Positions 8,450-57,996 of a DNA stretch of 64,000 nt are shown here, one piece after another. A program made the position numbers and the translations under genes. Each line of letters begins with the position of its first letter. Positions within the stretch are counted from its first letter, which is position 1. Location: assembly GCA_034004025.1 (NCBI GenBank), contig JAVEXM010000001.1, positions 4,203 through 68,202 on the forward strand. The letters run 5' to 3'. The DNA is from Bacteroidales bacterium (lineage in GTDB: Bacteria; Bacteroidota; Bacteroidia; Bacteroidales; VadinHA17). The notes below the pieces were generated by a model. The model saw only the letters and a list, made by a program, of their open reading frames with translations, made no database searches and was not told the DNA's origin.

Positions 8450-9868
8450 ATGAGGAAGGAGAATATCTGCAATCTTCTGGAAAAGAATCTGGGATACATA
8501 CCTACCGCGGATCAGTCCGACTGCATGCGTCTGCTCGCGGAATTCATCGTTGCCAATACCAATGATGTGATCTTCCTGTTGACCGGTTATGCCGGCACGG
8601 GCAAGACCAGCGTCATTGCCTCGCTGGTGAGCACTCTCACCACTCTTCGCCAGAAATCCGTTCTTCTCGCACCAACGGGCAGGGCCGCCAAGGTTCTGAA
8701 ATCCTATTCAGGCCAGGAGGCTCACACCATCCACCGGAAGATATACAGGCAGAAGTCGGCCACTGACGGGGTGGGCAAGTTCGTTCTTGACCGCAACCTT
8801 CATAAGGACACATATTTCATTGTGGATGAGTCGTCTATGATACCCGATGAATCATCTGACGGCTCAATGTTCGGCAGCGGGAAGCTGCTTGAGGATCTGC
8901 TGGAATATGTATATACCGGCCGCGACTGCAAGCTGGTGCTTGTGGGTGACGTGGCGCAGCTGCCGCCGGTGGGGTCGATTGTCAGTCCGGCCCTGGATGA
9001 GAATGTGCTTCGCGCCACCGGTTTTGCCCTTGAGACCTTCGAGCTGCGCCAGGTGATAAGGCAGAGCGAGGGTTCAGGCATACTGATGAATGCCACCGCC
9101 GTGAGGCAACAGGTGAACGACGGAGACCTGTCGGTGCCGGAACTGGTGCTGCAGCCATATAACGATATTGAGAGGCTGAGCGGCAATGACCTGATTGAAA
9201 GGCTCAGTGAGTCATATGACAGGTGCGGTACTGACGGTGCCATTGTAGTGGTCAACTCCAATAACCTGGCCAACAGGTATAACCAGGGAATCCGCAACCG
9301 TGTCTTTTACCGTGAGGAGGAGATAAGCACAGGTGACATCGTCATGGTTGTCAAGAATAATTATTACTGGCTCCGCGACGAGGAGAACAGTTCATTCATT
9401 GCCAACGGCGATATAGCCGAGGTGCGAAGGATCAGGAAATTCGAGGAGATGTACGGCCTGCACTATGCCGACATGACGCTCTGGTTTCGTGATGCGGAGT
9501 TGGAACTCGATGCCAAGGTGATGCTGGACACCCTCACTCTGCCCACCCCGTCACTCACTGCTGAGAAGTCGCGTGAGCTCTATTTCACCGTTCTGGCTGA
9601 TTATCCTGAAATACGGTCGAAGCGTAAACAGTTCGAGACGGTAAGGAACGACCCCTACTATAATGCCCTGCAGATCAAGTTCGCCTATGCCGTCACCTGC
9701 CACAAGTCGCAGGGCGGACAGTGGGAGAGGGTCTTTATTGACCAGGGTATGTTCAACCGGCAGGAGCCTACCATCGATTACCTGCGATGGTTTTACACGG
9801 CGCTGACAAGGGCGACGGAGAAGGTGTACCTGGTAAACTTCCCGGATAGCTGGTTCAGTCGGCAGTAG
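8450..9868 (+). CDS. RecD-like ATP-dependent DNA helicase (SF1)
   Basis: Walker A GYAGTGKTS, Walker B FIVDESSM, and C-terminal AYAVTCHKSQGGQW. I prefer the ATG at 8450 over the TTG at 8399 given by the ORF track. Confidence 0.8.
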   Translation: MRKENICNLLEKNLGYIPTADQSDCMRLLAEFIVANTNDVIFLLTGYAGTGKTSVIASLVSTLTTLRQKSVLLAPTGRAAKVLKSYSGQEAHTIHRKIYRQKSATDGVGKFVLDRNLHKDTYFIVDESSMIPDESSDGSMFGSGKLLEDLLEYVYTGRDCKLVLVGDVAQLPPVGSIVSPALDENVLRATGFALETFELRQVIRQSEGSGILMNATAVRQQVNDGDLSVPELVLQPYNDIERLSGNDLIERLSESYDRCGTDGAIVVVNSNNLANRYNQGIRNRVFYREEEISTGDIVMVVKNNYYWLRDEENSSFIANGDIAEVRRIRKFEEMYGLHYADMTLWFRDAELELDAKVMLDTLTLPTPSLTAEKSRELYFTVLADYPEIRSKRKQFETVRNDPYYNALQIKFAYAVTCHKSQGGQWERVFIDQGMFNRQEPTIDYLRWFYTALTRATEKVYLVNFPDSWFSRQ

Positions 9869-10034
9869 CAGTCGGCAGTCAGCAGTAGCAGTCGGCAGTC
9901 TGCAGTACCAGTCGGCAGTCAGCAGTACCAGTCGGCAGTCGGCAGTAGCAGTCGGCAGTAGCAGTCGGCAGTCAGCAGTACCAGTCGGCAGTCGGCAGTA
10001 GCAGTCGGCAGTCAGCAGTACCAGTCGGCAGTAG
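9856..10034. repeat. CAGT-core 6-7 nt microsatellite array, locus 2 (27 units)
   Basis: The units are cagtcgg (x12), cagtcag (x4), cagtctg (x1), cagtag (x6) and cagtac (x4). A 40-bp higher-order block (cagtcgg cagtcag cagtac cagtcgg cagtcgg cagtag) occurs at 9909-9948 and 9962-10001. The helicase TAG stop (9866-9868) lies inside unit 2. Confidence 0.9.
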
Positions 10035-46707: not shown

Positions 46708-48228
46708 ATGGAGAGGCCTGACAATCTGATAATTGTGATTTTCGGAGGCAGGGGTGACCTGGCTATGAGGAAGATCGTGCCGGCGTTGTATGCTCTTCAT
46801 GTTGAGAATCTGATGCCTGAAAAGTATGCGGTGGTGGCGACGGGCAGGACCGGGGTTACTGATGAGGCATATCGCGGGGAGGTGAAAAAGAGCCTGGCCG
46901 CAGTAACGGAAGAAAAGTCCGGAACGAACACAGATGAGTTTGTTGCTTTATTTCATTACATCGATTTTGATACATCCGTTGCCGGTGACTACAACAAGCT
47001 TCCTGATTTTCTTGATATGATAAGGCAAAAGTTCACCCTTGGCGGAAACATACTTTTTTACCTCTCTGTTCCTCCTGATCTGTACGGTGTGATACCCCGC
47101 AATCTGGCCCTGCAGGGTCTGAACAATGAGGGTGACGGCTGGAAGAGGATGATCATTGAGAAGCCGTTCGGTTACGACTACAGGAGTGCGGAAAAACTTA
47201 ACAGCACTCTTCTTGAGACTTGGAACGAAAGTCAGATATTCCGCATTGATCATTACCTGGGCAAGGAGACGGTACAGAATATCCTTGTGACAAGATTCTC
47301 AAACGGCATCTTCGAACCCCTGTGGAACCGTAATTATGTACATCATGTAGAGATCACCTCCTCAGAGACACTGGGTGTTGAGATGAGGGGATCCTACTAT
47401 GAAGATTCCGGTGCTTTGCGTGACATGGTCCAGAACCATCTGCTGCATCTGGCGGGTTTCGTTGCCATGGAGCCGCCCTCGTCAATAGATTCAACCTCAA
47501 TCAGGAATGAACTTGTGAAGGTTTTTGAGTCGCTCAGGCCGATCAGCAGTGAGGAGGTTCACAGGAACGCCATACGCGGACAGTATACCGGGGCTCATGT
47601 CAGGGGGGAATGGCTGAAGGGATACCGTGAAGAGGTGAATGTGGACCCGGGCTCGATGACTGAGACATTTGCCGCACTTAAATTTTACATTGATAACTGG
47701 AGGTGGGGCGGGGTGCCCTTTTATATAAGAACAGGCAAGAGACTGCCGACACGTGTCACCGAGGCAGTGATACACTTCAAGCCGACACCTCACTACCTCT
47801 TCTCGGGTCAGAGCTTTTGCGATGGGTGTAACCAGCTCATCATAAGGATACAGCCTGATGAGGGTATCCTGTTAAAGTTCGGCATGAAAATCCCCGGTGC
47901 CGGGTTCAAGGTAAAGAACGTAAATATGGACTTTCACTACTCTGACCTTGCCGCCGAAAGGATACCCGAAGCGTATGAGAGACTTCTGTACGACTGCATG
48001 AAGGGTGATTCCACCCTCTATACCAGGTCAGACGCCGTGCTGGCTGCATGGAAGTTCCTTGACCCTGTGCTTGAAGCCTGGAAAAACGACGACTCAATTC
48101 CTGTTTACGGGTATCCTGCGGGGACCTGGGGTCCGGAGAAGGCTGATGACCTTATAGAGGAGCCCGAACTTACATGGAGATACCCATGTAAAAATCTTGC
48201 CGAAGATGGTGTTTATTGTGAATTATAA
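46708..48228 (+). CDS. zwf: glucose-6-phosphate dehydrogenase
   Basis: 506 aa with IFGGRGDLAMRK (NADP site) and the active-site RIDHYLGKE. Confidence 0.9.
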   Translation: MERPDNLIIVIFGGRGDLAMRKIVPALYALHVENLMPEKYAVVATGRTGVTDEAYRGEVKKSLAAVTEEKSGTNTDEFVALFHYIDFDTSVAGDYNKLPDFLDMIRQKFTLGGNILFYLSVPPDLYGVIPRNLALQGLNNEGDGWKRMIIEKPFGYDYRSAEKLNSTLLETWNESQIFRIDHYLGKETVQNILVTRFSNGIFEPLWNRNYVHHVEITSSETLGVEMRGSYYEDSGALRDMVQNHLLHLAGFVAMEPPSSIDSTSIRNELVKVFESLRPISSEEVHRNAIRGQYTGAHVRGEWLKGYREEVNVDPGSMTETFAALKFYIDNWRWGGVPFYIRTGKRLPTRVTEAVIHFKPTPHYLFSGQSFCDGCNQLIIRIQPDEGILLKFGMKIPGAGFKVKNVNMDFHYSDLAAERIPEAYERLLYDCMKGDSTLYTRSDAVLAAWKFLDPVLEAWKNDDSIPVYGYPAGTWGPEKADDLIEEPELTWRYPCKNLAEDGVYCEL

Positions 48229-48257
48229 TTAGTTTTATGTCCTGATTGTTGCAGAAC

Positions 48258-48989
48258 ATGTCATACTCAGTCAGAGTGTTCCCCGACCGCGAAGCCCTGG
48301 CGCAAAGTTTCGCTGCAATGCTGATCAAGGATCTTGACAGGATTGAACCCGACCATTACTACACCGTTGCGCTCTCAGGCGGTTCAACGCCGGAGTTTAT
48401 CTTCAAATATATCTCGGACAATTATGCTGACAGGATAAGCTGGGGTAAGATGCTGGTTTTCTGGGGCGATGAGCGATGCGTCGGCCCGGACGACAGTGAG
48501 AGCAACTTCCGTATGGCTTATGACAGCCTGTTGCAGAACGTGCCTATCCCCGATGCCAATATTCTCAGGATCAGGGGAGAGGATGATCCGGATGCAGAAG
48601 CCAAACAGTATTCTGAACTTGTCAGCTCGATGATCCCCTTCTTCAACGGGACTCCGCAGTTTGACCTGATGCTGCTGGGTGTCGGAGATGACGGTCACAC
48701 TGCATCGGTCTTCCCTGACAGGCCTGATCTCTTTGCTACAGCACGTCTCTTCGATGTGGCGGTTCATCCCGGCACCGGCCTCAGGAGGATCACGGCCACC
48801 GGACGGCTTATCAACAACTCATCCAAAGTATACTATATAGTTACAGGCAAGGGCAAGGCCTCCATCGTTTCGGAGATAGTGGAAAAGAAGCCCGGGTCCG
48901 AGAGGTATCCGGCATCATGGGTCAAGCCGGGTTCGGGTCAGCTGTTGTGGATGCTGGACGTTGAGGCTGCTTCGTTGCTGAAGAAATAG
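48258..48989 (+). CDS. pgl: 6-phosphogluconolactonase
   Basis: LSGGSTP and LLGVGDDGHTASVFP motifs. I prefer the ATG at 48258 over the TTG at 48246. Confidence 0.8.
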   Translation: MSYSVRVFPDREALAQSFAAMLIKDLDRIEPDHYYTVALSGGSTPEFIFKYISDNYADRISWGKMLVFWGDERCVGPDDSESNFRMAYDSLLQNVPIPDANILRIRGEDDPDAEAKQYSELVSSMIPFFNGTPQFDLMLLGVGDDGHTASVFPDRPDLFATARLFDVAVHPGTGLRRITATGRLINNSSKVYYIVTGKGKASIVSEIVEKKPGSERYPASWVKPGSGQLLWMLDVEAASLLKK

Positions 48990-49019
48990 TCACACTACAA
49001 TCAAACTAACCAACTCTAT

Positions 49020-50159
49020 ATGATCGCAGGTATTCTTAAAGAGACAGGGAAGGAAAACAGGGTCGCACTCCTTCCCGGTGAAGCGGCAGCATTGAAAAAG
49101 CTCGGACTTGAAATTATGGTTGAGCATGGAGCCGGTGAGAGAGCATTTGCCCCGGACAGTGAATACCAGGCTGCCGGCGTCTCACCCACATCGAGGAATG
49201 AGATTCTCTCCAAAGCAGATCTCCTCCTGTGCATCAATCCTCCGGTGGCTGAGAATGTCGGCAACTTCAGGGCAGGACAGATTCTCTGTACTATCCTTGA
49301 CCCGGTTGAAAACAGGGAGTGGCTGGAAAAGATCAGGCAGAGGGAAGTTACCCTTCTTGCCCTTGACCTTGTGCCCAGGATCACCAGGGCACAGTCGATG
49401 GACATCCTCTCTTCAATGGCTACGGTATCAGGTTACAAGGCGGTGCTGGAGGCTGCCTCCCTGCTGCCCCGGTTTTTCCCGATGTTCATGACGGCCGCCG
49501 GAACCATCAAGCCTGCGCGAATGCTGATACTGGGTGCCGGCGTTGCCGGACTCCAGGCTATAGCCATAGCCCGTAAGCTGGGGGCTGTGGTTGAGGTTTT
49601 TGATGTAAGGTCGGCTGTGAAGGAGGAGGTGAAGAGCCTGGGTGGCAAATTTGTCGAGGTAGAGGGAGCGGTTGAGGATGCTTCCGCCGGCGGCTATGCC
49701 GTGGAACAGACGGAGGAATTCAAACGGCGCCAGCAGGAGCTCATCCAGCAACGCGCTGCCGCCGCTGACGTGATCATCGCCACAGCACAGATACCCGGCA
49801 GAAGGGCCCCGGTACTGATCCTGAAGGAGACAGTGGCCAGAATGAAGCCGGGGTCAGTGATCATTGACCTCGCAGCCTCGTCAGGTGGCAACTGTGAGCT
49901 TACAGAAAACGGCGTTGCCGTTAATGCCAACGGGGTCACAATAATAGGAAAATCAAACTATCCCTCGGAGATGCCGTCCGATGCCAGCCGGATGTTCGGC
50001 AACAACATAATCAATCTCCTCAAAATCATGGTTGACAGGGAGGGGAATATCGTGCCGGATATGGCAGACGAGGTCATCTTCGGTACCACGGCGGTGCACG
50101 GCGGAGAGTATGTCAGTCCAAGGGTAAAACAGATGCTTGATATAAAACAAACTGCATAA
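49020..50159 (+). CDS. pntAA: NAD(P) transhydrogenase subunit alpha, part 1 (dI)
   Basis: 379 aa, alanine-dehydrogenase/PNT-like, with the Rossmann motif ILGAGVAGLQAIA. Confidence 0.85.
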   Translation: MIAGILKETGKENRVALLPGEAAALKKLGLEIMVEHGAGERAFAPDSEYQAAGVSPTSRNEILSKADLLLCINPPVAENVGNFRAGQILCTILDPVENREWLEKIRQREVTLLALDLVPRITRAQSMDILSSMATVSGYKAVLEAASLLPRFFPMFMTAAGTIKPARMLILGAGVAGLQAIAIARKLGAVVEVFDVRSAVKEEVKSLGGKFVEVEGAVEDASAGGYAVEQTEEFKRRQQELIQQRAAAADVIIATAQIPGRRAPVLILKETVARMKPGSVIIDLAASSGGNCELTENGVAVNANGVTIIGKSNYPSEMPSDASRMFGNNIINLLKIMVDREGNIVPDMADEVIFGTTAVHGGEYVSPRVKQMLDIKQTA

Positions 50160-50461
50160 TGGAAGGATTTCTTGAATTTTTTATGGCGAACAGGGGCATC
50201 ATCTACATGGTGATTCTCTCAATATTCCTGGGCATAGAGGTTATAAGCCATGTGCCTGCAATACTCCACACCCCGCTGATGTCAGGTGCAAACGCCATCC
50301 ACGGGGTCGTAATTATCGGAGCTATTATTGTCATGGGCCATGCAGAGACCACCGGGGCAATGATCCTCGGTTTTCTCGCCGTTGTGCTCGGCACGCTGAA
50401 CGTTGTTGGCGGTTTTGTCGTCACCGACAGGATGCTTGAGATGTTTAAAAAGAAAAAATAA
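50159..50461 (+). CDS. pntAB: NAD(P) transhydrogenase subunit alpha, part 2 (membrane)
   Basis: 100 aa with three hydrophobic helices. Its ATG overlaps the pntAA stop by 1 nt. Confidence 0.8.
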   Translation: MEGFLEFFMANRGIIYMVILSIFLGIEVISHVPAILHTPLMSGANAIHGVVIIGAIIVMGHAETTGAMILGFLAVVLGTLNVVGGFVVTDRMLEMFKKKK

Positions 50462-50497
50462 CCCTGATTTATCCCGGTCGCTGCAAATAGTCGCACT

Positions 50498-51934
50498 ATG
50501 AATGATGTTTCCCAGTTTTCAGCAGGTGTCTCGGTGCTTGAGATAACCTATATAATTGCCTCTGTCTTTTTCATCCTCGGATTGAAGATGCTCAGTCATC
50601 CCCTCACGGCAAGGAGGGGCAATATTATTGCTGCCATCGGCATGATCCTGGCCATTGCTGCCACCATACTGTTCCACCAGAAAGATGGGGCACCGATTGG
50701 CAATATAGGATGGATCCTGGCCGCCATGATTATCGGTACCGCCATCGGATGGATCATAGCCGTAAAGGTGAAGATGACAGCGATGCCTCAGCTGGTCTCT
50801 TTCTTTAACGGTATGGGAGGCGCTGCCGCTGCCCTCATATCAATGATGGAGTTCCCGCACATCAGCAGCGAACTTATTGCACGAACAGGCATGGCTAACG
50901 GTCATGTCCTGGCTATACTTCTGGGCCTGGTGATTGGGTCGGTCTCATGGTCCGGCAGCATGATCGCCTTTGGTAAGCTTGACGGCTGGATAGGTGATCT
51001 GAGGGTCAAGGCAATGAAATATGTCAATGTTACGATCCTGGTTTTTATAATCGCCTTTATTGCTTACATAATGACCCGTGACGTACAGGCCTCCTCGGAG
51101 CTGACTCCCCTGATACTGATTCTCTTTGCCGTTGCTGTTGCCTACGGGGTGCTCTTCGTGATGCCCATCGGCGGTGCTGACATGCCGGTGGTGATATCGC
51201 TGCTCAACAGCTTCACCGGCGTAGCGGCAGCTATGGGCGGATTCCTCTACAGTAACCAGGCGATGCTTACCGGCGGGATACTTGTCGGATCAGCAGGAAC
51301 CATACTCACAATACTGATGTGCCGCGCCATGAACCGCTCACTGCTCAATGTCATCGTCGGTGTCTTCGGTGGCGGCGGAGCGGCCGCAGCAGCAGAGGGT
51401 GGCACCGTAAAGGAGATAACCGTGTCAGACGCCGCCGTGCTGCTAAGCTATTCAAAGAAGGTGGTGATAGTGCCGGGCTACGGACTGGCAGTGGCACAGG
51501 CACAGCATATATGCCATGAGCTGGACAAGCTTCTGGATGAGAAAGGGGTGGAGGTGAAGTATGCAATTCACCCTGTGGCAGGACGTATGCCCGGCCATAT
51601 GAACGTACTGATGGCTGAGGCCGATGTTCCCTATGAACAGCTGGTTGAGAGCGACGAGGTCAATCCCGACCTTCCCAACACCGACGTGATCGTGGTCATC
51701 GGTGCCAATGACGTTGTTAACCCGGCCGCCGAGGATGATCCTTCGAGCCCGATCTTCGGTATGCCCATCGTAAGGGCACGTGACGCCAGAAACATCATCG
51801 TCATGAAGCGGGGAATGGGTAAGGGCTACGCTGCCATAGAGAACATGCTCTTTTTCAACGACAAGACCCGAATGCTCTTCGGTGATGCCAAGAGCACACT
51901 GCAGGCACTGGTTACGGAGGTAAAGGCGTTGTAG
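50498..51934 (+). CDS. pntB: NAD(P) transhydrogenase subunit beta
   Basis: 478 aa with a polytopic N-terminal part and a C-terminal dIII domain (VPGYGLAVAQAQH...GANDVVNPAA). Confidence 0.9.
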   Translation: MNDVSQFSAGVSVLEITYIIASVFFILGLKMLSHPLTARRGNIIAAIGMILAIAATILFHQKDGAPIGNIGWILAAMIIGTAIGWIIAVKVKMTAMPQLVSFFNGMGGAAAALISMMEFPHISSELIARTGMANGHVLAILLGLVIGSVSWSGSMIAFGKLDGWIGDLRVKAMKYVNVTILVFIIAFIAYIMTRDVQASSELTPLILILFAVAVAYGVLFVMPIGGADMPVVISLLNSFTGVAAAMGGFLYSNQAMLTGGILVGSAGTILTILMCRAMNRSLLNVIVGVFGGGGAAAAAEGGTVKEITVSDAAVLLSYSKKVVIVPGYGLAVAQAQHICHELDKLLDEKGVEVKYAIHPVAGRMPGHMNVLMAEADVPYEQLVESDEVNPDLPNTDVIVVIGANDVVNPAAEDDPSSPIFGMPIVRARDARNIIVMKRGMGKGYAAIENMLFFNDKTRMLFGDAKSTLQALVTEVKAL

Positions 51935-51936
51935 GG

Positions 51937-52031
51937 CAGTCGGCAGTCAGCAGTCGGCAGTCGGCAGTCGGCAGTCGGCAGTCAGTAACTAATTGATTGA
52001 CTGCCGACTGAAGGCTGAAGACTGAAGACTG
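51937..52031. repeat. CAGT/ACTG-core heptamer array, locus 3 (7 CAGT-oriented units, 12-nt spacer, 5 ACTG-oriented units) forming a 13-bp perfect hairpin
   Basis: cagtcgg cagtcag cagtcgg x4 cagtcag | taactaattgat | tgactg ccgactg aaggctg aagactg aagactg. The stem pairs 51972-51984 with 51998-52010. The array begins 3 nt after the pntB stop and ends 1 nt before the stop of the convergent gene. Confidence 0.9.
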
Positions 52032-52032
52032 A

Positions 52033-53139
52033 CTATCTCGCCAGATCCTTAATGACGTCAGAAATGTGCCCCCAATACCTTTTGTGGAACTTCAGGCTCT
52101 TTTTGCCCAGCATTGAATGATATGTCTGCGGCTCGTCTTCCGGGGCGAATTTAACTTTTGCACGGTCTTCATACAGTGATGACACCTCGGGGTGAAACTG
52201 CACCGCAAAGACATTCGGATACCTGACATGGGCTATCCCCTCTACCACCTTGCCATCCATCGAGAGGGCGGTAATATCAAAACAGAGAGCCACATTTTTT
52301 ACAGACTGGTGATGATGGCTGTAAACAAGTGGCTGAATGCTTCGCGATACCTTTACGGTTTTCCCGAAGAATCCGTGCTCAGTGAACCTGACCGGATGAA
52401 TGCTGCTGCTCATGTAGTCAGGACCTTCCTTCACTTTCTGCCAGTTGTTCCGATGCTGGTTGTCACGGTCGATCAGTACATGTGTCTCCGGCCTGTAGCT
52501 ACCGTATATCTGTGCAGGGATATCCTGGTACAGGGTGCCACCGGCAGCCACGTTCATTGTCTGCATCCCCAGGCAGAAGCCTGTTACCAGGTAGTCAGGC
52601 TTTTCAGTGAGCAACGGTGTGTAGGTTGTGTTCCGTGTGCTTCCCAGAAGATGAAACAGAAAGGTTACCTCAAAAAAATGTCTCCCCGGGTCACCGGTCT
52701 CGGAATACCAGTTTTCCTCACCGTAGACTGACGGAGGAATGTCCTCTCCTCCAAAGAAGAGGACTCCTACGGAATTTTTGAAAATCAGACGGAGGTCGTC
52801 ACTGCATGGGTTCTCCCTGTAAAGAAGATCCTCTGTAAGCGGTCCCTTGACTTCGTGAAGGTGATAATCCTTCATGCCGACGGAATCGATATACTTTGCC
52901 GATTTGGAGAAATCGTATTTCTGACTGGAGTGCCAGACACCCACAAAATCTATAATGTCGGTATTAATATCAAGCAGTCCGTTTTTCACAAGGTAATCAA
53001 CAACTCCGATGTTACCGACGGTTGGGTTTACCAGGATGACATAATCTTTCTCCCTGCTGAACTCTGCACGGAAGAAGTTCTGTGCGGAGAGAGGGATAAA
53101 CAGCGAGAAAATCGCCAGGCAGAGGAACAGTTTTTTCAT
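52033..53139 (-). CDS. exported class-I glutamine amidotransferase-like / peptidase C26 (gamma-glutamyl hydrolase-type) protein
   Basis: 368 aa with a signal peptide (MKKLFLCLAIFSLFIPLSAQ). It has the nucleophile region GFCLGMQTMNVAAGG, then HHQSV and QFHPE. Confidence 0.7.
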   Translation of the reverse strand: MKKLFLCLAIFSLFIPLSAQNFFRAEFSREKDYVILVNPTVGNIGVVDYLVKNGLLDINTDIIDFVGVWHSSQKYDFSKSAKYIDSVGMKDYHLHEVKGPLTEDLLYRENPCSDDLRLIFKNSVGVLFFGGEDIPPSVYGEENWYSETGDPGRHFFEVTFLFHLLGSTRNTTYTPLLTEKPDYLVTGFCLGMQTMNVAAGGTLYQDIPAQIYGSYRPETHVLIDRDNQHRNNWQKVKEGPDYMSSSIHPVRFTEHGFFGKTVKVSRSIQPLVYSHHHQSVKNVALCFDITALSMDGKVVEGIAHVRYPNVFAVQFHPEVSSLYEDRAKVKFAPEDEPQTYHSMLGKKSLKFHKRYWGHISDVIKDLAR

Positions 53140-53170
53140 GCTGCAAATATTTATGCGGTAAAAGTAAATT

Positions 53171-54646
53171 TTATTCCGTTACAATACGCTCGTTATCACC
53201 CAGGTATTCAGTTCTGGGATTTTGATTGTTGAATGATGACATCATTTTATAAACTGCCGGTATCTGCCACGACAGTCGGCTCAGGATATCGGCCGGTATT
53301 GAACTGCGGCTGAAGGGTACCGCTTTGACATATTCCTGCAAATCGCCTGCCTTGCGGCCATATTTGTATTCATAGGTGAATGAACCGTCATCACGCAGTA
53401 CCGCATTCCTGTTCAGGATATTCGGTACGCTGACGTAGAATTCGCTCTCTGCTTTTTCGGAGTTGCTGAGGAGGCCTTTGACTGACAGGTGGTCATAGAG
53501 CTGGTCGGCGACAACCGAAGCCGGGTTGACCAGGATCAGGTCCTCTGCTATCAGTGATCGATAAACATATTCGCCGTTTTCACGGTGGTTCCTCAGCCGT
53601 TCAAACTCCTCCCTGAATGTCTCAAGGAAAAAGGGATAATGGGTGCATGCCAGCACTACCGAGTTAAGAGGCAGGGCGTCAGGGCTGTTCCTGATCTTTT
53701 CCATCAGGCTCACAACATGGAAGGCTATATAGTTCTCCACCGAGTTGATCTGAATGTTTTCCGGAGCTGCAGCGTCACCTTCAAAGAGCATCGCACCGTT
53801 TTCAAGGTCGAAATCGTAACGGTCCCACAACCGGAGATCTATCTTCATCTCACCGGAGCAGGTGTCTGAGGGTCCCCTGTAACCCGGACGGGGTGCGGTG
53901 GCTCTCCTGTCAATAGCCTCTGCGCTCTCATCTATGGCCTCAGCAATGCCTATGCCCGCCTGCTGGAATACCATGATATTCTCTTCCTGTCCGTCGGCTT
54001 TGTTAACCCTGGTGATGCTCGCGGGATAAGCTCCTGACTTCACCGTTCCGTCGGTGGCCATTACAGCGATTGTGCCATTCTCTCCCGGGGAAAAATTTCC
54101 GAAAGCACCCAATGCCCCCGCATCAACCACACCAATGACGCCGATGTCTGATCCGGCCTGAGACAGAAATTGCCTGACGGTGTCGAGACCATATGCGGTT
54201 GCAGTGTTGCATGCAATAACTATTGCCTTGACAGGACTCTTGTCAGTCTCATACCTTCGCGCATCACCTGAGCGGTAGTATTTATTGCCCAGGAGAAACT
54301 GAACATCTTTCATGATATGTTCAATCAGAAGCGGCGTGTTGTTCTCGAGGGCATAGCTTCCGTAGGGCATATTGGCAAGATCGCCGTAGTATATATAAGA
54401 TTCCCTCGCAAGCTCCTCATGGTCAATTATATCAGCCAGAACCGACAGTCCTCCGGTCCCTGAGTCGAAAACCCCGATCGGCAGCGCACTGTTGCCTGAA
54501 GGATAATTCTTAAAGTCGATATGCCAGAAACTGTCAGGGTGGTTCATTATGGCATCCCTGATTCCGCCGGGTTTGTCACACGAGATGAAGATCAGCAGCA
54601 GCAGGGCAATTGGGATGATGCGCTTAAGGAACAGGAATTGTTTCAT
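53171..54646 (-). CDS. Asp/Glu racemase family (glutamate-racemase-like) protein with a lipoprotein-type signal and large insertions
   Basis: 491 aa with N-terminal ..LLLLIFISC DKPG. All four MurI-type motifs are present: GVFDSGTGGLSVL, YYGDLANMPYG, VIACNTAT and LACTHYPF. Confidence 0.7.
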   Translation of the reverse strand: MKQFLFLKRIIPIALLLLIFISCDKPGGIRDAIMNHPDSFWHIDFKNYPSGNSALPIGVFDSGTGGLSVLADIIDHEELARESYIYYGDLANMPYGSYALENNTPLLIEHIMKDVQFLLGNKYYRSGDARRYETDKSPVKAIVIACNTATAYGLDTVRQFLSQAGSDIGVIGVVDAGALGAFGNFSPGENGTIAVMATDGTVKSGAYPASITRVNKADGQEENIMVFQQAGIGIAEAIDESAEAIDRRATAPRPGYRGPSDTCSGEMKIDLRLWDRYDFDLENGAMLFEGDAAAPENIQINSVENYIAFHVVSLMEKIRNSPDALPLNSVVLACTHYPFFLETFREEFERLRNHRENGEYVYRSLIAEDLILVNPASVVADQLYDHLSVKGLLSNSEKAESEFYVSVPNILNRNAVLRDDGSFTYEYKYGRKAGDLQEYVKAVPFSRSSIPADILSRLSWQIPAVYKMMSSFNNQNPRTEYLGDNERIVTE

Positions 54647-54802
54647 GCAGGTCAGGATTTAGGTTAATTCCATTGCATAAATGTAACATCACGGACGGAA
54701 TTTGCAATGCAGAATGCTGTGCAACATTTGCCGGATTATGACGCTTCAAGCATCCCGGATAATAAATTTGTGCCCTGATAAATCTTTGCATTAAAAAATC
54801 AC

Positions 54803-54810
54803 TATTTTTG
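54803..54810 (+). promoter_or_regulatory. Bacteroidota -7 promoter motif (TAnnTTTG) abutting box 1 upstream of arsR
   Basis: TATTTTTG at 54803-54810. Its last base is the first base of the inverted repeat. Confidence 0.5.
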
Positions 54811-54829
54811 TTTCGTCGTTTCCCGAAAT
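54810..54829. promoter_or_regulatory. inverted-repeat box 1 (GTTTCG-N8-CGAAAT), candidate ArsR operator
   Basis: gtttcg tcgtttcc cgaaat, ending 3 nt before the arsR ATG. This is one of three near-identical boxes. Confidence 0.6.
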
Positions 54830-54832
54830 GAA

Positions 54833-55150
54833 ATGGAAGCTAAACAGGCCAGAAAAAAATATTATTCGGATGATCAGGAGAAGCTGGCGGGGTATGCCAA
54901 AGCACTGTCTCACCCGGTGCGGGTATTCGTAATGGATTTTCTGGCAAACAATCTCGACAAATGCTGTTACAGCGGTGATATGGCGGAGGAACTGCCCATT
55001 GCCCGTTCGACCCTGTCGGAACATCTGAAGGAGTTGAAGAAGGCGGGACTGATACAGGGCGAGATCAACCCACCCTATATTAAATACTGCATCAACAGGG
55101 AGAATTGGGACGAGGCAAAATTGTTACTGAATAAATTTTTCAAGCGATAA
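54833..55150 (+). CDS. arsR: ArsR/SmtB family metalloregulatory transcriptional repressor
   Basis: 105 aa with a winged HTH (LSHPVRVFVMDFL...IARSTLSEHLKELKKAGLI). A vicinal Cys pair (DKCCYSGD) sits at the position of the ELCVCDL metal(loid) site. Confidence 0.85.
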   Translation: MEAKQARKKYYSDDQEKLAGYAKALSHPVRVFVMDFLANNLDKCCYSGDMAEELPIARSTLSEHLKELKKAGLIQGEINPPYIKYCINRENWDEAKLLLNKFFKR

Positions 55151-55165
55151 AAAATTTAATATAGT

Positions 55166-55185
55166 ATTTCGGCGTTTTACGAAAT
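55166..55185. promoter_or_regulatory. inverted-repeat box 2 (ATTTCG-N8-CGAAAT), candidate ArsR operator
   Basis: atttcg gcgtttta cgaaat, ending 18 nt before the ATG at 55204. Confidence 0.6.
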
Positions 55186-55203
55186 GAAAGGAGAATAATC
55201 AAT

Positions 55204-55437
55204 ATGGAAATTAAAATCCTGGGGCCCGGGTGCCCCAAATGCAAAACCCTGGAGAAACTGACATACGAAGTGGTTGAACAGAATGGAATAGAGGCGACGG
55301 TCTCCAAGGTAGAGGACATTGTAGCCATAATGAACTACGGTGTCATGACAACCCCGGCCCTTGTGGTCAATGAGAAGGTTGTTCTGAAGGGACGGTTACC
55401 GTCAGCAGAAGAACTTAAGAAGCTACTAACCAACTAA
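55204..55437 (+). CDS. small thioredoxin-fold redox-active disulfide protein (CPKC)
   Basis: 77 aa. MEIKILGPGCPKCKTLE is typical of the 'redox-active disulfide protein 2' type of mini-thioredoxin. Confidence 0.85.
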   Translation: MEIKILGPGCPKCKTLEKLTYEVVEQNGIEATVSKVEDIVAIMNYGVMTTPALVVNEKVVLKGRLPSAEELKKLLTN

Positions 55438-55451
55438 ATAATTGCAGGTTT

Positions 55452-55892
55452 ATGAAAAAGGTAATCTGGATTTCAATAGTTGTTCTGGCTCTCGTTGCCT
55501 TCCTGGCTTTCAGGCCGGGTGGTAAAGCAGATGTCAGTTCTGATGCGGCCGTAACAGCAGCAGACAAGGTGGAAGTAATTTATTTTCACTTCTCACGCAG
55601 ATGCGTAACCTGTATGGCAGTTGAGAACAAGACCCGTGAGGCCATAATGGCGCTTTATCCTGATGAATACAATAAGGGCACGATCACCTTCGCCTCGTTA
55701 AATCTTGAGGATGAAAAGAACAAGCCCGTTGCCGAAAAGGCAAAGGTCACAGGGCAGGCATTGCTCATCATGAGCGGGGAGTTCAGGAAAGACCTTACAG
55801 CCGACGGATTTATGTATGCCAACAACAACTTTGACAGGTGGAAGGCTGAGATCAAAAAGGCAATCGATCCTCTCCTGAAAGAGATTAAATAG
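55452..55892 (+). CDS. membrane-anchored thioredoxin-fold CXXC protein (resembles the family annotated as ArsF-like)
   Basis: 146 aa with an N-terminal TM anchor and a CVTC motif in YFHFSRRCVTCMAVE. The ArsF-family label is from memory of annotation practice and has not been verified. Confidence 0.6.
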   Translation: MKKVIWISIVVLALVAFLAFRPGGKADVSSDAAVTAADKVEVIYFHFSRRCVTCMAVENKTREAIMALYPDEYNKGTITFASLNLEDEKNKPVAEKAKVTGQALLIMSGEFRKDLTADGFMYANNNFDRWKAEIKKAIDPLLKEIK

Positions 55893-55895
55893 TGC

Positions 55896-56597
55896 ATGGA
55901 ACTTCTTCAAAGGCTTCTTGAGAATTCACAGTACTCGTTTATCACGGCGGCAATCCTTGGGCTGATGACTGCCATCAGCCCATGCCCGCTGGCTACCAAT
56001 ATTTCGGCAATAGGTTTTATCAGCCGTGATCTTACTGACCGGAGAAGGGTTTTTCTCAACGGACTCGTTTATACCCTTGGAAGAGCCATAACATATGTCG
56101 GTATTGCGTTGATCATATTCTTTGGCGCCAGCCAGATGGATATCTCCGGCTGGTTCCAGAGATGGGGAGAGAAACTGCTGGGCCCGGTTCTGATTCTGAT
56201 AGGTCTGTTTATGCTCGACATCATAAAACTAAAGCTTCCGGGCGGCATGGGATCATTTACGGAGAAGATAGGGGAGAGGGGCAGAAAGAGTTATCTGAAC
56301 ACCCTGCTTCTTGGAATTCTGTTTGCAATGGCCTTTTGCCCCTACAGCGGAGTTTTGTACTTCGTAATGCTGATACCTATGACAGTAGCCAGTGCTGACG
56401 GACTCTATCTGCCCCTGATCTTTGCAATCGCAACCGGTATTCCTGTGATCATCTTTGCATGGCTTCTGGCCTATGCGGTTGGCAACGTAGGCAAGATGTA
56501 CAGCAGGATCAGGACATTTGAACTCTGGTTCAGAAGAGTTGTGGCGGTACTGTTCATTGGCGTAGGAATCTATTACATTATAATAACCTACCTGTAA
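55896..56597 (+). CDS. CcdA/DsbD-family thiol-disulfide transfer membrane protein (family also annotated as ArsG-like)
   Basis: 233 aa with about 6 TM helices and two membrane-embedded Cys in SPCPL and FCPYS contexts. Confidence 0.75.
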   Translation: MELLQRLLENSQYSFITAAILGLMTAISPCPLATNISAIGFISRDLTDRRRVFLNGLVYTLGRAITYVGIALIIFFGASQMDISGWFQRWGEKLLGPVLILIGLFMLDIIKLKLPGGMGSFTEKIGERGRKSYLNTLLLGILFAMAFCPYSGVLYFVMLIPMTVASADGLYLPLIFAIATGIPVIIFAWLLAYAVGNVGKMYSRIRTFELWFRRVVAVLFIGVGIYYIIITYL

Positions 56598-56613
56598 AAA
56601 AAATTAAAAATGC

Positions 56614-56633
56614 ATTTCGGGTTTTTACGAAAT
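56614..56633. promoter_or_regulatory. inverted-repeat box 3 (ATTTCG-N8-CGAAAT), candidate ArsR operator
   Basis: atttcg ggttttta cgaaat, ending 19 nt before the ATG at 56653. Confidence 0.6.
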
Positions 56634-56652
56634 AAAAATCTTTAAAATAATA

Positions 56653-57996
56653 ATGGAACTCAGGAAAGAACTGAAGATCCTTCTGTGGATCATTGTGGTA
56701 TTTGTATTCGCGTTCTTCATGCCGATTGAAAGCGCCCGTTTCAACACGGCGATTGCTGCGACTTTCGATCTGGTCAGGTGGTATGCCCGGGAACATGTGA
56801 TATTATGCCTCCTGCCGGCATTCTTTATTGCAGGTGTCATCTCGGTATTTGTCAGCCAGGGATCGGTTATCAAATATTTTGGTGCGAATGCGAAGAAGTG
56901 GCTGGCCTATTCTGTGGCTGCCGTTTCCGGTACGATCCTGGCAGTCTGCTCATGTACTATCCTCCCGCTGTTTTCAAGCATCCACAAGCGCGGTGCCGGC
57001 CTCGGCCCGGCAATTGCCTTCCTCTATTCCGGCCCTGCAATCAATATCCTGGCAATCATTCTGACGGCCCGTATCCTGGGGTTTGAGATGGGTGTTGCGC
57101 GAGTCATAGGAGCCGTGGTTTTCAGCGTGGTGATAGGAGTGATAATGTCACTGATCTATCGTAAGGAAGAGCAGCAGAAAAGAGAGGATCAGATGAACAT
57201 AGTTGCTGAGCCGGAGAAAAGGCCTATGTGGCAGACAATGACGCACTTCTTTACCCTTGTCATCATCCTGGTCTTTGCAAACTGGGGCAGCCCGGCTGCT
57301 GACGATACTTCAAGTGCATGGTACTATATCTGGTCCTATAAGTGGTACATCACCGGTTTCTTCAGCCTGGTGCTCGGGTGGTCACTGATCAGGATCCTTA
57401 AGATCAAATGGCACTGGGTTCTGGCCGCAGCGGCAGTAACCGTAATTTCGGTGCTCCTTTCGAACGCCTTCATTGAAAGTGCGAAGCTGAGACCACTGGT
57501 GCCCATGGTTGTGGGGATAGCAGCATTAAGCATTATTACGCTCTTCGATAAGCAGGATGATGAGAACCGTGAGTGGACACTCTCAACATGGGGTTTCGCC
57601 AAACAGATAATGCCCCTCCTTGCAATCGGGGTTGTGATTGCCGGTTTTCTCCTTGGGTCGACCCATGACGGCCAGAGTATCCCCGGGATTATACCGAATG
57701 AATGGATCGCAAAACTCGTTGGCGGCAACTCGGTATTCTCAAACTTCTTTGCATCAATAGTAGGTGCCTTCATGTACTTTGCCACACTCACAGAAGTGCC
57801 GATACTTCAGGGACTGATAGCCTCCGGTATGGGTAAGGGCCCTGCCCTGGCCCTGCTCCTTGCCGGGCCTTCGCTTTCTTTGCCTAATATGTTGGTTATC
57901 AGAGGTATTATTGGAAATCAGAAAACGGCAGTATACGTTGCCCTGGTTGTTGTTATGGCGACAATATCAGGCCTTATGTATGGATCAATCTTTTAA
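56653..57996 (+). CDS. polytopic permease (UPF0718 / ArsP-like permease family)
   Basis: 447 aa, multi-TM, with AVCSCTILPLF (a CxC in a TM helix) as in this permease family. Confidence 0.7.
   Translation: MELRKELKILLWIIVVFVFAFFMPIESARFNTAIAATFDLVRWYAREHVILCLLPAFFIAGVISVFVSQGSVIKYFGANAKKWLAYSVAAVSGTILAVCSCTILPLFSSIHKRGAGLGPAIAFLYSGPAINILAIILTARILGFEMGVARVIGAVVFSVVIGVIMSLIYRKEEQQKREDQMNIVAEPEKRPMWQTMTHFFTLVIILVFANWGSPAADDTSSAWYYIWSYKWYITGFFSLVLGWSLIRILKIKWHWVLAAAAVTVISVLLSNAFIESAKLRPLVPMVVGIAALSIITLFDKQDDENREWTLSTWGFAKQIMPLLAIGVVIAGFLLGSTHDGQSIPGIIPNEWIAKLVGGNSVFSNFFASIVGAFMYFATLTEVPILQGLIASGMGKGPALALLLAGPSLSLPNMLVIRGIIGNQKTAVYVALVVVMATISGLMYGSIF

What the first reader, a model, noticed from the sequence alone, without database searches (positions are those of the whole stretch)
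52033..54646. Apparently exported glutamate-racemase-like lipoprotein co-transcribed with an exported C26 gamma-glutamyl peptidase-like protein
The 491-aa upstream protein keeps all four MurI hallmark motifs, including both catalytic-Cys contexts (ACNTAT and ACTHYP). It nevertheless starts with a lipoprotein-type signal (LLLLIFISC) and is almost twice the normal length, with insertions between the motifs. The gene 31 nt downstream encodes a signal-peptide-bearing class-I amidotransferase/peptidase C26 fold (GFCLGMQ, HHQ, QFHPE) with its own N-terminal extension. Cofactor-independent racemases are normally cytoplasmic. An extracytoplasmic racemase plus gamma-glutamyl hydrolase pair would fit the processing of D-Glu/gamma-Glu-containing material such as peptidoglycan stem peptides, poly-gamma-glutamate or folyl-polyglutamates. 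I do not know this to be a described pathway.
Basis: partly seen in the sequence, partly recalled or inferred. Interest (0 to 1): 0.55.

Follow-up and report, generated by a model that had tools for sequence, protein, structure and literature searches.

The report
Exported glutamate racemase plus gamma-glutamyl hydrolase
A Bacteroidales genome carries a two-gene unit for a lipid-anchored, exported relative of glutamate racemase (normally cytoplasmic) and an exported gamma-glutamyl hydrolase; the racemase belongs to a large undescribed family whose neighbours and gene fusions point to scavenging D-glutamate from bacterial cell-wall peptides outside the cytoplasm.

Summary
On the minus strand, 53171-54646 encodes a 491-aa MurI-like protein with a lipobox (…IFIS-C23). 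After a 31-nt gap, 52033-53139 encodes a 368-aa Peptidase_C26 protein with a signal peptide.

The racemase-like protein folds as MurI plus about 230 extra residues. It keeps every residue I checked against the MurI active site.

It belongs to a family found in at least 580 species genomes of Bacteroidota, Ignavibacteriota, Calditrichota and relatives. Of 199 members, 191 have the lipobox Cys and six have a type-I signal peptide instead, so export is a selected trait.

In Flavobacteriia, Cytophagia and Sphingobacteriia the gene sits in SusC/SusD operons. These also hold exported D-aminoacylase-like, beta-lactamase-fold and M14 hydrolases, GGT, a GltP-like symporter and an L-Ala-D/L-Glu-epimerase-like gene. 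Recurrent fusions join it to a GltS glutamate symporter, a D-aminoacylase-like domain, an S12 hydrolase, and (one representative) a D-glutamate-cyclase-like domain.

Most likely it racemises D-Glu to L-Glu in the periplasm during peptidoglycan-peptide salvage.

The C26 pairing is limited to one clade. It holds in all 13 distinct loci of 55% identity or more that carry C26, plus two rearranged cases elsewhere. Close relatives with the same synteny carry C26 alone.

I could not test for a canonical murI elsewhere in the genome. I found no description in the held literature.

The parts
53171..54646 (-). Gene for a 491-aa exported MurI-like (glutamate-racemase-like) lipoprotein. It has a MurI two-domain core plus three additions, at residues about 97-140, about 238-300 and about 395-491.
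   Evidence: ORF. TIGR00067 99.2 bits and PF01177 28.5 bits, both below cut-off. AlphaFold2 model with pLDDT 91.5 and pTM 0.89. The top 48 Foldseek PDB hits are all glutamate racemases, best target-normalised TM 0.80.
54578..54646 (-). Codons 1-23: lipoprotein signal peptide ending in the lipobox I-F-I-S-C23.
   Evidence: Translation checked. Cys23 is invariant in the 66-sequence alignment and present in 191 of 199 members. Six members have a type-I signal peptide instead.
54209..54211 (-). Codon of Cys146 (ACNTATA), the first catalytic thiol position of MurI.
   Evidence: Cys in 197 of 199, Ser in 2. Equivalent to H. pylori C70 as cited in PMC6927343.
53645..53647 (-). Codon of Cys334 (ACTHYP), the second catalytic thiol position of MurI.
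   Evidence: Cys in 198 of 199. Equivalent to H. pylori C181, followed by T182 and H183.
53140..53170 (-). 31-nt spacer between the two genes.
   Evidence: No terminator-like or promoter-like site falls in it. That scan uses the sigma-70 consensus, which is not the Bacteroidota promoter type.
52033..53139 (-). Gene for a 368-aa exported Peptidase_C26 / class-I glutamine-amidotransferase-fold hydrolase.
   Evidence: PF07722 86.4 bits and PF00117 52.5 bits. AlphaFold2 model with pLDDT 90.0. Best folds are PuuD 6vtv, Lin1909 3fij and SpuA 7d4r/7d50/7d53.
53083..53139 (-). Codons 1-19 of the C26 gene: type-I signal peptide (…IPLSA | QNFF).
   Evidence: The hydrophobic N-terminus is conserved and Gln20 is invariant in 35 homologues.
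52186..52575 (-). Span holding the C26 catalytic triad codons: Cys189 (52573-52575), His316 (52192-52194) and Glu318 (52186-52188).
   Evidence: All three are invariant in alignments A3 and A4.
51935..52032 (.). Long hairpin built from GACTGCC heptamer repeats and their inverted copies. It lies between the convergent C26 and pntB genes and is probably a two-way terminator.
   Evidence: Sequence. RNA fold -43.8 kcal/mol, z = -4.9 against shuffles.
54647..54832 (.). 186-nt region upstream of the racemase-like gene, shared with the divergent ArsR-family gene. This is the presumed promoter region.
   Evidence: No promoter was demonstrated.

Best explanation
**What the unit encodes.** It is a two-gene unit for extracytoplasmic enzymes.

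- The upstream product is made with a lipoprotein signal peptide and anchored by Cys23 on the periplasmic side of a membrane. It is a catalytically competent, cofactor-independent two-thiol racemase of a distinct long MurI-like family.
- Its most likely reaction is D-Glu to L-Glu on free glutamate. This would make the D-Glu released from peptidoglycan stem peptides usable and importable.
- The downstream product is secreted to the periplasm. It is a Cys-His-Glu gamma-glutamyl-amide hydrolase of the PuuD/SpuA type.
- In this clade the hydrolase most likely supplies the racemase by cutting gamma-glutamyl bonds, for example gamma-D-Glu-meso-DAP, or gamma-Glu oligomers.

**Shown here.**
- The genes and their motifs.
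- Conservation of the export signals.
- The MurI and PuuD-like folds.
- The family's breadth, its neighbourhoods and its fusions.

**Inferred.**
- The substrate.
- The direction of the reaction.
- The hand-over between the two enzymes.
- Co-transcription.
For: **Export is conserved.**
- The lipobox Cys is invariant in the 66-sequence alignment.
- 191 of 199 members have it, and six have swapped to a type-I signal peptide.
- The C26 signal peptide with Gln at +1 is conserved.

**The catalytic machinery is intact.** D61, S62, P94, Y95, G96, C146, N147, T148, T198, T201, C334, T335 and H336 are invariant or nearly so across 199 members. They match the residues listed for H. pylori MurI in PMC6927343: D7, S8, C70, T72, E150, C181, T182, H183. 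The MurI fold is recovered at target-normalised TM up to 0.80.

**Gene context points to D-amino-acid peptides.** 48 of 81 loci have a themed neighbour.
- Co-directional operons run: SusC, SusD, then an M14 or beta-lactamase-fold hydrolase, then an Amidohydro_3 gene, then the racemase gene, then an SDF symporter, GGT or DUF819.
- The Amidohydro_3 neighbour is closest to D-aminoacylase (E 8e-55) and N-acyl-D-glutamate deacylase (E 1e-46).
- The enolase-superfamily neighbour is closest to dipeptide and L-Ala-D/L-Glu epimerases.
- The SDF neighbour is closest to GltP.
- The hydrolases carry signal peptides, while the epimerase-like and DAP_DH_C-like genes do not.
- L003 places GltS and SDF genes directly upstream.
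- L034 and L062 place a BadF-type sugar kinase and an MFS transporter gene upstream.

**Fusions point the same way.**
- The racemase-GltS fusion recurs in 10 clusters at 90% identity, on many contigs.
- There are also fusions to Amidohydro_3, to the beta-lactamase/S12 fold (including cultured Pseudobacter, Flavihumibacter and Flavitalea), to M14, to D-glutamate-cyclase-like, to an AAE-type permease and to a GATase1-like domain.

**The C26 partner.** Its best folds are all gamma-glutamyl-amide hydrolases. Pairing holds in all 13 distinct loci of the 55-78% clade that hold C26. It recurs in L019 (a lipocalin gene intervenes) and in L022 (C26 upstream), which argues for more than inherited adjacency.
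Against: - No activity, localisation or transcript data exist.
- C26 homologues of 54-65% identity stand alone in all five loci examined. L089 and L090 have this window's exact synteny but no racemase gene or remnant. The hydrolase therefore does not need the racemase.
- Most racemase-family loci have no C26, and 33 of 81 have no informative neighbour.
- The direction of racemisation is not fixed by any result.
  - GltS is linked to D-Glu use by a D-Glu auxotroph (title of PMC12502697).
  - A reference in that paper reports that a periplasmic racemase, BsrF, suppressed D-Glu auxotrophy.
  - An anabolic role is therefore conceivable.
- Glu236, which I equate with H. pylori E150, is Gly or Ala in 44 of 199 members.
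- Two catalytic thiols must stay reduced outside the cytoplasm.
- HMM scores are below the curated MurI cut-offs.
Confidence: 0.55

Rival explanations
1. The two genes are neighbours without a shared pathway. The C26 hydrolase is the resident gene of this locus with its own substrate, such as gamma-glutamyl amines, glutathione-like compounds or folyl-polyglutamates. The racemase gene was inserted upstream of it in one lineage.
For: - L089 and L090 keep the order ArsR cluster, C26, pntBA, pgl, zwf without the racemase gene.
- Prolixibacteraceae-type C26 genes are also solitary.
- Most racemase-family loci lack C26.
Against: - All 13 distinct loci of the 55-78% clade that hold C26 keep it directly downstream, at short spacing.
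- The pair recurs in different arrangements in L019 and L022, which come from other lineages.
- A different GATase1-like domain is fused to the racemase in P0268.
Confidence: 0.2
2. The racemase works in the other direction, from L-Glu to D-Glu, in the periplasm. It would supply D-Glu for import into peptidoglycan synthesis, or for wall editing or signalling. This is what periplasmic PLP-dependent broad-spectrum racemases do.
For: - Periplasmic racemases BsrV, BsrF and RacK are known. A cited report says BsrF suppressed D-Glu auxotrophy in Vibrio fischeri, and mutant gltS alleles lower that auxotroph's D-Glu requirement (PMC12502697).
- Fusion to GltS fits import of either enantiomer.
- A canonical murI in this genome could not be checked.
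Against: - The context is catabolic and foraging in type: SusC/SusD, FecR, exported D-aminoacylase-like and D-peptidase-like hydrolases, GGT and a GltP-like symporter.
- The gene sits in accessory foraging-type operons rather than with wall-synthesis genes.
- I recovered catalytically dead paralogues.
Confidence: 0.12
3. The protein is not a free-glutamate racemase. The roughly 230 added residues retarget the MurI scaffold to another substrate, such as peptide-bound or N-acylated Glu (L-Ala-D-Glu, gamma-D-Glu-DAP, N-acetyl-Glu), or Asp.
For: - Scores fall below the MurI equivalog cut-offs.
- There are large conserved insertions and a C-terminal extension.
- Glu236 is not conserved.
- Neighbours act on dipeptides and N-acyl-D-amino acids.
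Against: - All residues that I equate with the glutamate-contacting ones of MurI are invariant: D61, S62, P94-Y95-G96, N147, T148, T201, T335 and H336.
- Fusions are to a glutamate symporter and a D-glutamate-cyclase-like domain, both of which handle free Glu.
Confidence: 0.1
4. It is the ordinary cytoplasmic housekeeping MurI with a mis-called start codon.
For: Some source annotations name family members 'glutamate racemase'. No other murI lies in the window.
Against: - The N-terminal signal is conserved across phyla, and in six members it is exchanged for a type-I signal.
- The protein is about 230 aa longer than solved MurIs.
- Fusions place a signal peptide ahead of the racemase domain and a membrane transporter after it.
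Confidence: 0.02

Closest known systems
Glutamate racemase MurI/RacE (TIGR00067; PDB 1zuw, 2dwu, 2jfx and others)
   Same: - Two-domain Asp/Glu-racemase fold.
- The DSG, PYG, CNT and CTH motifs, including both catalytic Cys.
   Different: - It is exported and lipid-anchored.
- It is 491 aa against 254-293 aa, with three conserved additions.
- It scores below the curated cut-offs.
- It sits in foraging-type operons rather than acting as a wall-synthesis housekeeping gene.
Periplasmic PLP-dependent broad-spectrum racemases (BsrV of Vibrio cholerae, BsrF of V. fischeri, RacK of Acinetobacter)
   Same: They are amino-acid racemases with a signal sequence that act in the periplasm (PMC12502697).
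   Different: By established knowledge these belong to the alanine-racemase fold and depend on PLP. The protein here has the cofactor-independent two-thiol MurI fold.
Gamma-glutamyl-amide hydrolases of family C26: PuuD (6vtv), SpuA (7d4r/7d50/7d53), Lin1909 (3fij)
   Same: - Best structural matches.
- Cys-His-Glu triad and the HHQ motif.
- Pfam C26 score above cut-off.
   Different: - It has a signal peptide.
- It is about 95 residues longer after cleavage, at the N-terminus, internally and in a C-terminal helix.
- It scores far below the PuuD equivalog cut-off: 29.6 bits against 266.
- Its substrate is unknown.
Postulated periplasmic peptidoglycan-peptide recycling route of Bacteroides thetaiotaomicron: BT1087 AmiA, BT1314 YkfC, BT1313 L-Ala-D/L-Glu epimerase, BT1086 (Xu et al. 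2015, PMC4600125)
   Same: - It is a Bacteroidota pathway that trims stem peptides outside the cytoplasm and deals with the D-Glu stereocentre.
- A homologue of the epimerase sits in some racemase-family operons.
   Different: - That route inverts D-Glu inside the dipeptide with an enolase-superfamily epimerase.
- It uses NlpC/P60 amidases.
- It includes no MurI-like or C26 enzyme.
D-aminoacylase / N-acyl-D-glutamate deacylase (1m7j, 3gip/3giq)
   Same: They are the closest solved relatives of the most frequent operon partner and fusion partner of the racemase family.
   Different: This partner is absent from the window. Here a C26 hydrolase occupies the adjacent position.

Membership tests
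Glutamate racemase MurI (TIGR00067 / PF01177) | Score at or above the curated family cut-off | tested here: not met
   TIGR00067 99.2 bits against 146.65. NF002035 90.1 against 328. PF01177 28.5 against 31.
Glutamate racemase MurI (TIGR00067 / PF01177) | Two-domain Asp/Glu racemase fold | tested here: met
   AlphaFold2 model with pLDDT 91.5. The top 48 Foldseek PDB hits are all MurI, with E down to 6e-16 and target-normalised TM up to 0.80.
Glutamate racemase MurI (TIGR00067 / PF01177) | Two catalytic cysteines and the helper residues (H. pylori D7, S8, C70, T72, E150, C181, T182, H183) | tested here: met
   D61, S62, C146, T148, E236, C334, T335 and H336 are all present in the window protein. 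All except E236 are at least 99% conserved in 199 members. E236 is conserved in 155 of 199. The residue list comes from PMC6927343. The correspondence rests on the alignments plus inference.
Glutamate racemase MurI (TIGR00067 / PF01177) | Cytoplasmic enzyme of about 250-290 aa that supplies D-Glu for UDP-MurNAc-peptide synthesis | tested here: not met
   491 aa with a conserved lipoprotein signal. Solved MurIs are 254-293 aa.
Glutamate racemase MurI (TIGR00067 / PF01177) | Interconversion of D- and L-glutamate | not testable with these tools
   Needs an enzyme assay.
Bacterial lipoprotein (signal peptidase II substrate) | A positively charged n-region, a hydrophobic h-region and a lipobox ending in Cys within the first 15-35 residues | tested here: met
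   K2, K8 and R9; then IIPIALLLLIF; then I-S-C23. The Cys is conserved in 191 of 199 members. This was judged by my own pattern check. No SignalP or LipoP run was available.
Peptidase C26 (gamma-glutamyl hydrolase / class-I amidotransferase-like) | Pfam PF07722 score above the gathering cut-off | tested here: met
   86.4 bits against 20.5.
Peptidase C26 (gamma-glutamyl hydrolase / class-I amidotransferase-like) | Cys-His-Glu catalytic triad on the nucleophile-elbow fold | tested here: met
   Cys189, His316 and Glu318 are invariant. The fold matches PuuD, SpuA and Lin1909.
PuuD (gamma-glutamyl-GABA hydrolase, NF008471) | Equivalog-level score | tested here: not met
   29.6 bits against a cut-off of 266. 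It is a C26 member but not a PuuD orthologue.
PUL-like SusC/SusD nutrient-acquisition operon | A SusC/SusD pair co-directional with the gene | tested here: not met
   There is no SusC/SusD pair near the window genes. The neighbours are pntAB/zwf/pgl and an ArsR cluster. The feature is met for 21 other family loci.

The most novel reading that the evidence does not exclude
This family is the first cofactor-independent (two-thiol) amino-acid racemase that works outside the cytoplasm. It is the stereochemical key step of a previously unrecognised class of SusC/SusD-type 'peptidoglycan-peptide utilisation loci' in Bacteroidota and allied phyla. These loci would let the bacteria feed on the D-glutamate of other bacteria's cell walls. 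In some lineages the racemase is physically fused to the glutamate importer.
Probability: 0.45. Interest if true: 0.72.

Novelty: new variant of a known kind. Interest (0 to 1): 0.62.

Why it matters
**Compartment.** By established knowledge, glutamate racemase is treated as a cytoplasmic, essential wall-synthesis enzyme and a drug target. An exported, lipid-anchored branch present in hundreds of species would extend the enzyme class to a new compartment and a catabolic role.

**A gap in D-amino-acid cycling.** D-Glu and other D-amino acids from peptidoglycan are a recognised part of slowly degraded organic matter in oceans and sediments. They are also abundant in guts and digesters. How Bacteroidota, the main polymer degraders, handle the D-stereocentre has been described only for a dipeptide epimerase route. 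The operons found here give a concrete, testable pathway in cultured strains of Flavobacterium, Polaribacter, Pedobacter, Echinicola and Anditalea.

**Annotation.** Source annotations call these proteins either 'glutamate racemase' or 'hypothetical protein'. Metabolic reconstructions may therefore count them wrongly as wall-synthesis genes.

Tried and rejected
1. **Second, canonical murI.** tblastn of the protein found none in the window and none in the 87 loci held at that point.
   - The rest of the MAG could not be reached.
   - The look-up of the window protein returned only a 3.2-kb contig.
   - The 'only murI' refuter therefore stays open.
2. **Literature.** Ten full-text searches (one rejected for syntax) combined glutamate racemase with periplasmic, lipoprotein, signal peptide, SusC, D-aminoacylase, peptidoglycan utilisation and D-glutamate catabolism. 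None gave a description of an exported MurI-like protein or of these operons. The library holds only open-access papers and bioRxiv preprints.
3. **Dedicated thiol-reducing system.** I considered whether the divergent ArsR / CxxC-protein / DsbD_2 / permease cluster keeps the two Cys enzymes reduced. I rejected it as specific evidence for two reasons. NCBIfam places the genes in the ArsF and ArsG organoarsenical families. The cluster also sits beside C26-only loci.
4. **P0268 fusion domain.** I tested whether the GATase1-like domain fused to the racemase in P0268 is a C26 homologue. BLASTP found no significant similarity, so it counts only as an analogous fold association.
5. **Promoter and terminator scan.** The scan of 51800-55000 was uninformative: counts matched the shuffles, and it uses the sigma-70 consensus only.
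6. **OngB caveat.** D-aminoacylase-like enzymes can be sugar-acid deacetylases (PMC12017989; PDB 9kb1). The operon partner scores better against D-aminoacylase and N-acyl-D-Glu deacylase, but its substrate is not settled.


Full report
**1. The observation**

The minus strand carries two ORFs: 53171-54646 (491 aa) and 52033-53139 (368 aa), 31 nt apart.

The upstream protein:
- It starts MKQFLFLKRIIPIALLLLIFIS-C23. It contains FDSGTGGL, NMPYG, ACNTATA and ACTHYP.
- It hits glutamate-racemase models only below their curated cut-offs. TIGR00067 gives 99.2 bits against 146.65, and PF01177 gives 28.5 against 31.
- Solved MurI chains of 254-293 aa align only with residues about 55-225 and about 326-354.

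The downstream protein:
- It starts MKKLFLCLAIFSLFIPLSA|QN.
- It is a clear Peptidase_C26 / class-I amidotransferase-fold protein: 86.4 bits against a cut-off of 20.5.
- Cys189, His316 and Glu318 are in place.

**2. The N-termini are real**

- In a 66-sequence alignment reaching down to 48% identity, Cys23 is invariant.
- Among 199 family members from databases and genomes, 191 have Cys at that column. Six full-length members instead have a classical type-I signal peptide, for example …LFAQG and …LIWSQE.
- A family that keeps export while swapping the type of signal is under selection for export.
- The C26 family keeps its hydrophobic leader and an invariant Gln at +1.
- No conserved acidic stretch follows Cys23. 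From what I recall of Bacteroides lipoprotein sorting, that argues for a periplasm-facing protein rather than a surface one. This point is inference.

**3. The fold and the active site**

The racemase-like protein:
- AlphaFold2 on the family alignment gave pLDDT 91.5 and pTM 0.89.
- The top 48 Foldseek PDB hits are all glutamate racemases, with target-normalised TM up to 0.80. An archaeal aspartate racemase comes next.
- The extra roughly 230 residues fall at about 97-140, about 238-300 and about 395-491. They are predicted with confidence and are conserved.
- D61, S62, P94-Y95-G96, C146-N147-T148, T198, T201 and C334-T335-H336 are at least 99% conserved in 199 members.
- These correspond to the residues listed for H. 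pylori MurI in PMC6927343: D7, S8, C70, T72, C181, T182 and H183.
- The equivalent of E150 (E236) is present here, but it is Gly or Ala in 44 of 199 members.

The C26 protein:
- Its model has pLDDT 90.0.
- Its best folds are PuuD, Lin1909 and SpuA. PuuD and SpuA act on gamma-glutamyl amides; Lin1909 is uncharacterised.

**4. How wide the family is**

- They span Rikenellaceae-like Bacteroidales, Flavobacteriia, Cytophagia, Sphingobacteriia, Chitinophagia, Ignavibacteriota, Calditrichota, Marinimicrobia/Fidelibacterota, KSB1 and others.
- Cultured carriers include Polaribacter, Flavobacterium, Pedobacter, Echinicola, Anditalea, Tenacibaculum and Flagellimonas.
- An exhaustive HMMER search of 50%-identity representatives found 123 clusters at E ≤ 1e-30.
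- That search also revealed three further things:
  - shorter exported sub-branches of about 450 aa and about 370 aa;
  - lipoprotein paralogues that have lost DSG, CNT and CTH (P0311, P0332);
  - multi-domain fusions.
- Sources name these proteins 'hypothetical protein', 'glutamate racemase' or 'Asp/Glu/hydantoin racemase'.

**5. Gene context**

I called ORFs within ±7 kb of the gene in 81 loci, clustered them, and named the clusters with Pfam, NCBIfam and PDB searches. 48 of 81 loci have at least one themed neighbour.

The recurring co-directional layout in Flavobacteriia, Cytophagia and Sphingobacteriia is:
1. FecR (in some loci).
2. SusC, then SusD.
3. One of: a DAP_DH_C-like dehydrogenase, an enolase-superfamily gene, or an unknown lipoprotein.
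4. An M14 carboxypeptidase-like or a beta-lactamase-fold serine hydrolase.
5. An Amidohydro_3 gene.
6. The racemase gene.
7. One of: an SDF symporter, M14, gamma-glutamyltranspeptidase, DUF819 or an fn3 lipoprotein.

The closest relatives of these partners:

| Partner | Loci | Closest relatives |
|---|---|---|
| Amidohydro_3 | 25 | D-aminoacylase (E 8e-55); N-acyl-D-glutamate deacylase (E 1e-46) |
| Enolase-superfamily gene | 3 | PDB 3iji (E 4e-102), then entries deposited as dipeptide epimerase and L-Ala-D/L-Glu epimerase |
| Beta-lactamase-fold hydrolase | 14 | D-aminopeptidase |
| SDF symporter | 8 | GltP |

From memory, 3iji is the B. thetaiotaomicron BT1313 epimerase.

Other points:
- By a simple hydrophobicity and lipobox check, the hydrolases are exported, while the epimerase-like and dehydrogenase-like genes are not.
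- L003 has SDF and GltS symporter genes immediately upstream.
- L034 and L062 have a BadF-type sugar kinase and an MFS transporter gene upstream.
- Taken together this is the gene content expected for uptake and dismantling of peptidoglycan-derived peptides that contain D-amino acids.

**6. Fusions**

| Fusion partner | Example proteins |
|---|---|
| Beta-lactamase/S12 fold | P0242, P0243; P0414, P0427, P0464 in cultured Pseudobacter, Flavihumibacter, Flavitalea |
| Amidohydro_3 | P0288 |
| M14 | P0419 |
| D-glutamate-cyclase-like domain | P0250 |
| AAE-type permease | P0410 |
| GATase1-like domain | P0268 |
| GltS sodium/glutamate symporter | P0271 |

- The GltS fusion is not an artefact. Ten clusters at 90% identity, of 914-979 aa and 56-100% identity, carry both domains on many contigs.
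- Each fusion I read keeps an N-terminal signal peptide.
- A racemase domain placed between a signal peptide and a glutamate transporter is hard to explain unless it handles glutamate on the outer side of the cytoplasmic membrane.

**7. The pairing with C26**

For a functional link:
- In all 13 distinct loci where the racemase-like protein is 55-78% identical to the window's and C26 is present, C26 follows directly.
- The pair recurs in L019, from an unclassified MAG, with a lipocalin gene between the two. It also recurs in L022, from Calditrichota, with C26 upstream.

Against an obligatory link:
- L017 (56%) and L018 (52%) lack C26. They have beta-lactamase-fold or Amidohydro_3 neighbours instead.
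- All five C26-centred loci I looked up lack the racemase gene.
- Two of those, L089 and L090, share this window's order (ArsR cluster, C26, pntBA, pgl, zwf) and hold no racemase remnant.

The hydrolase is therefore the resident gene at this locus, and the racemase gene is an addition or a loss. The link is plausible but not obligatory.

**8. Most likely mechanism**

Shown here: two exported enzymes. One has an intact MurI-type site and the other an intact C26 triad.

Inferred:
- The C26 enzyme frees glutamate from gamma-glutamyl amides. In peptidoglycan fragments the gamma-D-Glu-meso-DAP bond is the obvious candidate. Poly-gamma-glutamate is a second.
- The lipoprotein then converts D-Glu to L-Glu so it can be taken up by L-Glu carriers and assimilated.
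- In other lineages the D-Glu would come from the D-aminoacylase-like enzyme acting on L-Ala-D-Glu or N-acyl-D-Glu, from M14 peptidases or from GGT.

My confidence, by step:

| Step | Confidence |
|---|---|
| Export | about 0.85 |
| Glutamate as ligand | about 0.7 |
| Salvage role of the family | about 0.6 |
| Hand-over from C26 in this window | about 0.4 |

**9. Rivals**

- Unrelated neighbours (0.2).
- Periplasmic production of D-Glu, as with Bsr-type racemases (0.12). A periplasmic racemase has been reported to suppress D-Glu auxotrophy in Vibrio fischeri, and mutant gltS alleles lower that auxotroph's D-Glu requirement (PMC12502697).
- A retargeted substrate such as peptide-bound or N-acyl Glu (0.1).
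- A mis-called housekeeping MurI (0.02).

**10. Comparison with what is known**

- The protein works like MurI and shares its fold and its site. It fails two membership tests: the curated score and the cytoplasmic housekeeping architecture. It is best called a distinct exported MurI-like family.
- The known periplasmic racemases belong to the PLP-dependent alanine-racemase type.
- The only described extracytoplasmic handling of the D-Glu centre in Bacteroidota that I found is the postulated BT1087 / BT1314 / BT1313 route (PMC4600125). That route uses a dipeptide epimerase.
- None of the ten searches of the held literature returned a description of the family or of these operons.

**11. Limits**

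- There are no experimental data.
- No formal signal-peptide predictor was run.
- I could not check for a canonical murI elsewhere in this MAG.

**12. Verdict**

- It is a new variant of a known enzyme kind, with a testable ecological role.
- Interest 0.62.

Noticed in passing
window 51935-52032: The spacer between the convergent C26 and pntB genes is made of GACTGCC heptamer repeats followed by their inverted copies. It folds into one long hairpin (-43.8 kcal/mol, z = -4.9). It is probably a two-way terminator, but the heptamer array itself is unusual.
   Followed up: partly
window 54833-57996 (+): A divergently transcribed cluster of four genes:
- an ArsR-family regulator;
- an exported CxxC protein of the ArsF family;
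- a DsbD_2-type membrane protein of the ArsG family;
- an ArsP_1-type permease.

It is syntenic beside the racemase-C26 pair in L005-L013 and L015. It also sits beside C26 alone in L089 and L090. I considered it as a possible periplasmic thiol-reducing system for the two Cys enzymes, but found no specific support.
   Followed up: partly
window 46708-51934 (+): The genes zwf (G6PD), pgl, and pntA / pntA2 / pntB (proton-translocating transhydrogenase) form a conserved block convergent on the C26 gene. This NADPH-supply cluster keeps its place in relatives.
   Followed up: no
P0311, P0332 (representatives, about 492 aa): These lipoprotein paralogues have the same length and architecture but have lost the DSG, CNT and CTH motifs. 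They are likely catalytically dead relatives, perhaps binding proteins. P0095 has Ser for the first catalytic Cys, and P0097 has Ser for both.
   Followed up: no
P0271, P0390-P0398 (914-979 aa): A recurrent natural fusion of the exported racemase domain to a GltS sodium/glutamate symporter. It is present in ten clusters at 90% identity on many contigs. P0410 fuses the domain to an AAE-type permease with a TrkA_C domain.
   Followed up: partly
P0250 (822 aa): A fusion of the exported racemase domain to a D-glutamate-cyclase-like domain (PF14336). It suggests a route from L-Glu or D-Glu to 5-oxo-D-proline outside the cytoplasm.
   Followed up: no
L089 and L090, about 4400-5000: Close relatives with the same gene order as the window have only a 360-525-nt gap where the racemase gene would be, with no remnant. 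The racemase gene was therefore gained or lost cleanly at this spot.
   Followed up: partly
L032, L033, L035 (Ignavibacteriaceae), about 6800-10000: Here the racemase gene follows a class-IV aminotransferase gene (the fold of D-amino-acid transaminases) and a family-B DNA polymerase gene. A Beta-CASP RNase gene and a sigma factor gene follow it. This context is conserved in that lineage but I could not interpret it.
   Followed up: no
L069 11727-12164: A second, partial copy of the C-terminal third of the racemase-like gene lies about 900 nt downstream of the full gene (39% identity to residues 340-485).
   Followed up: no
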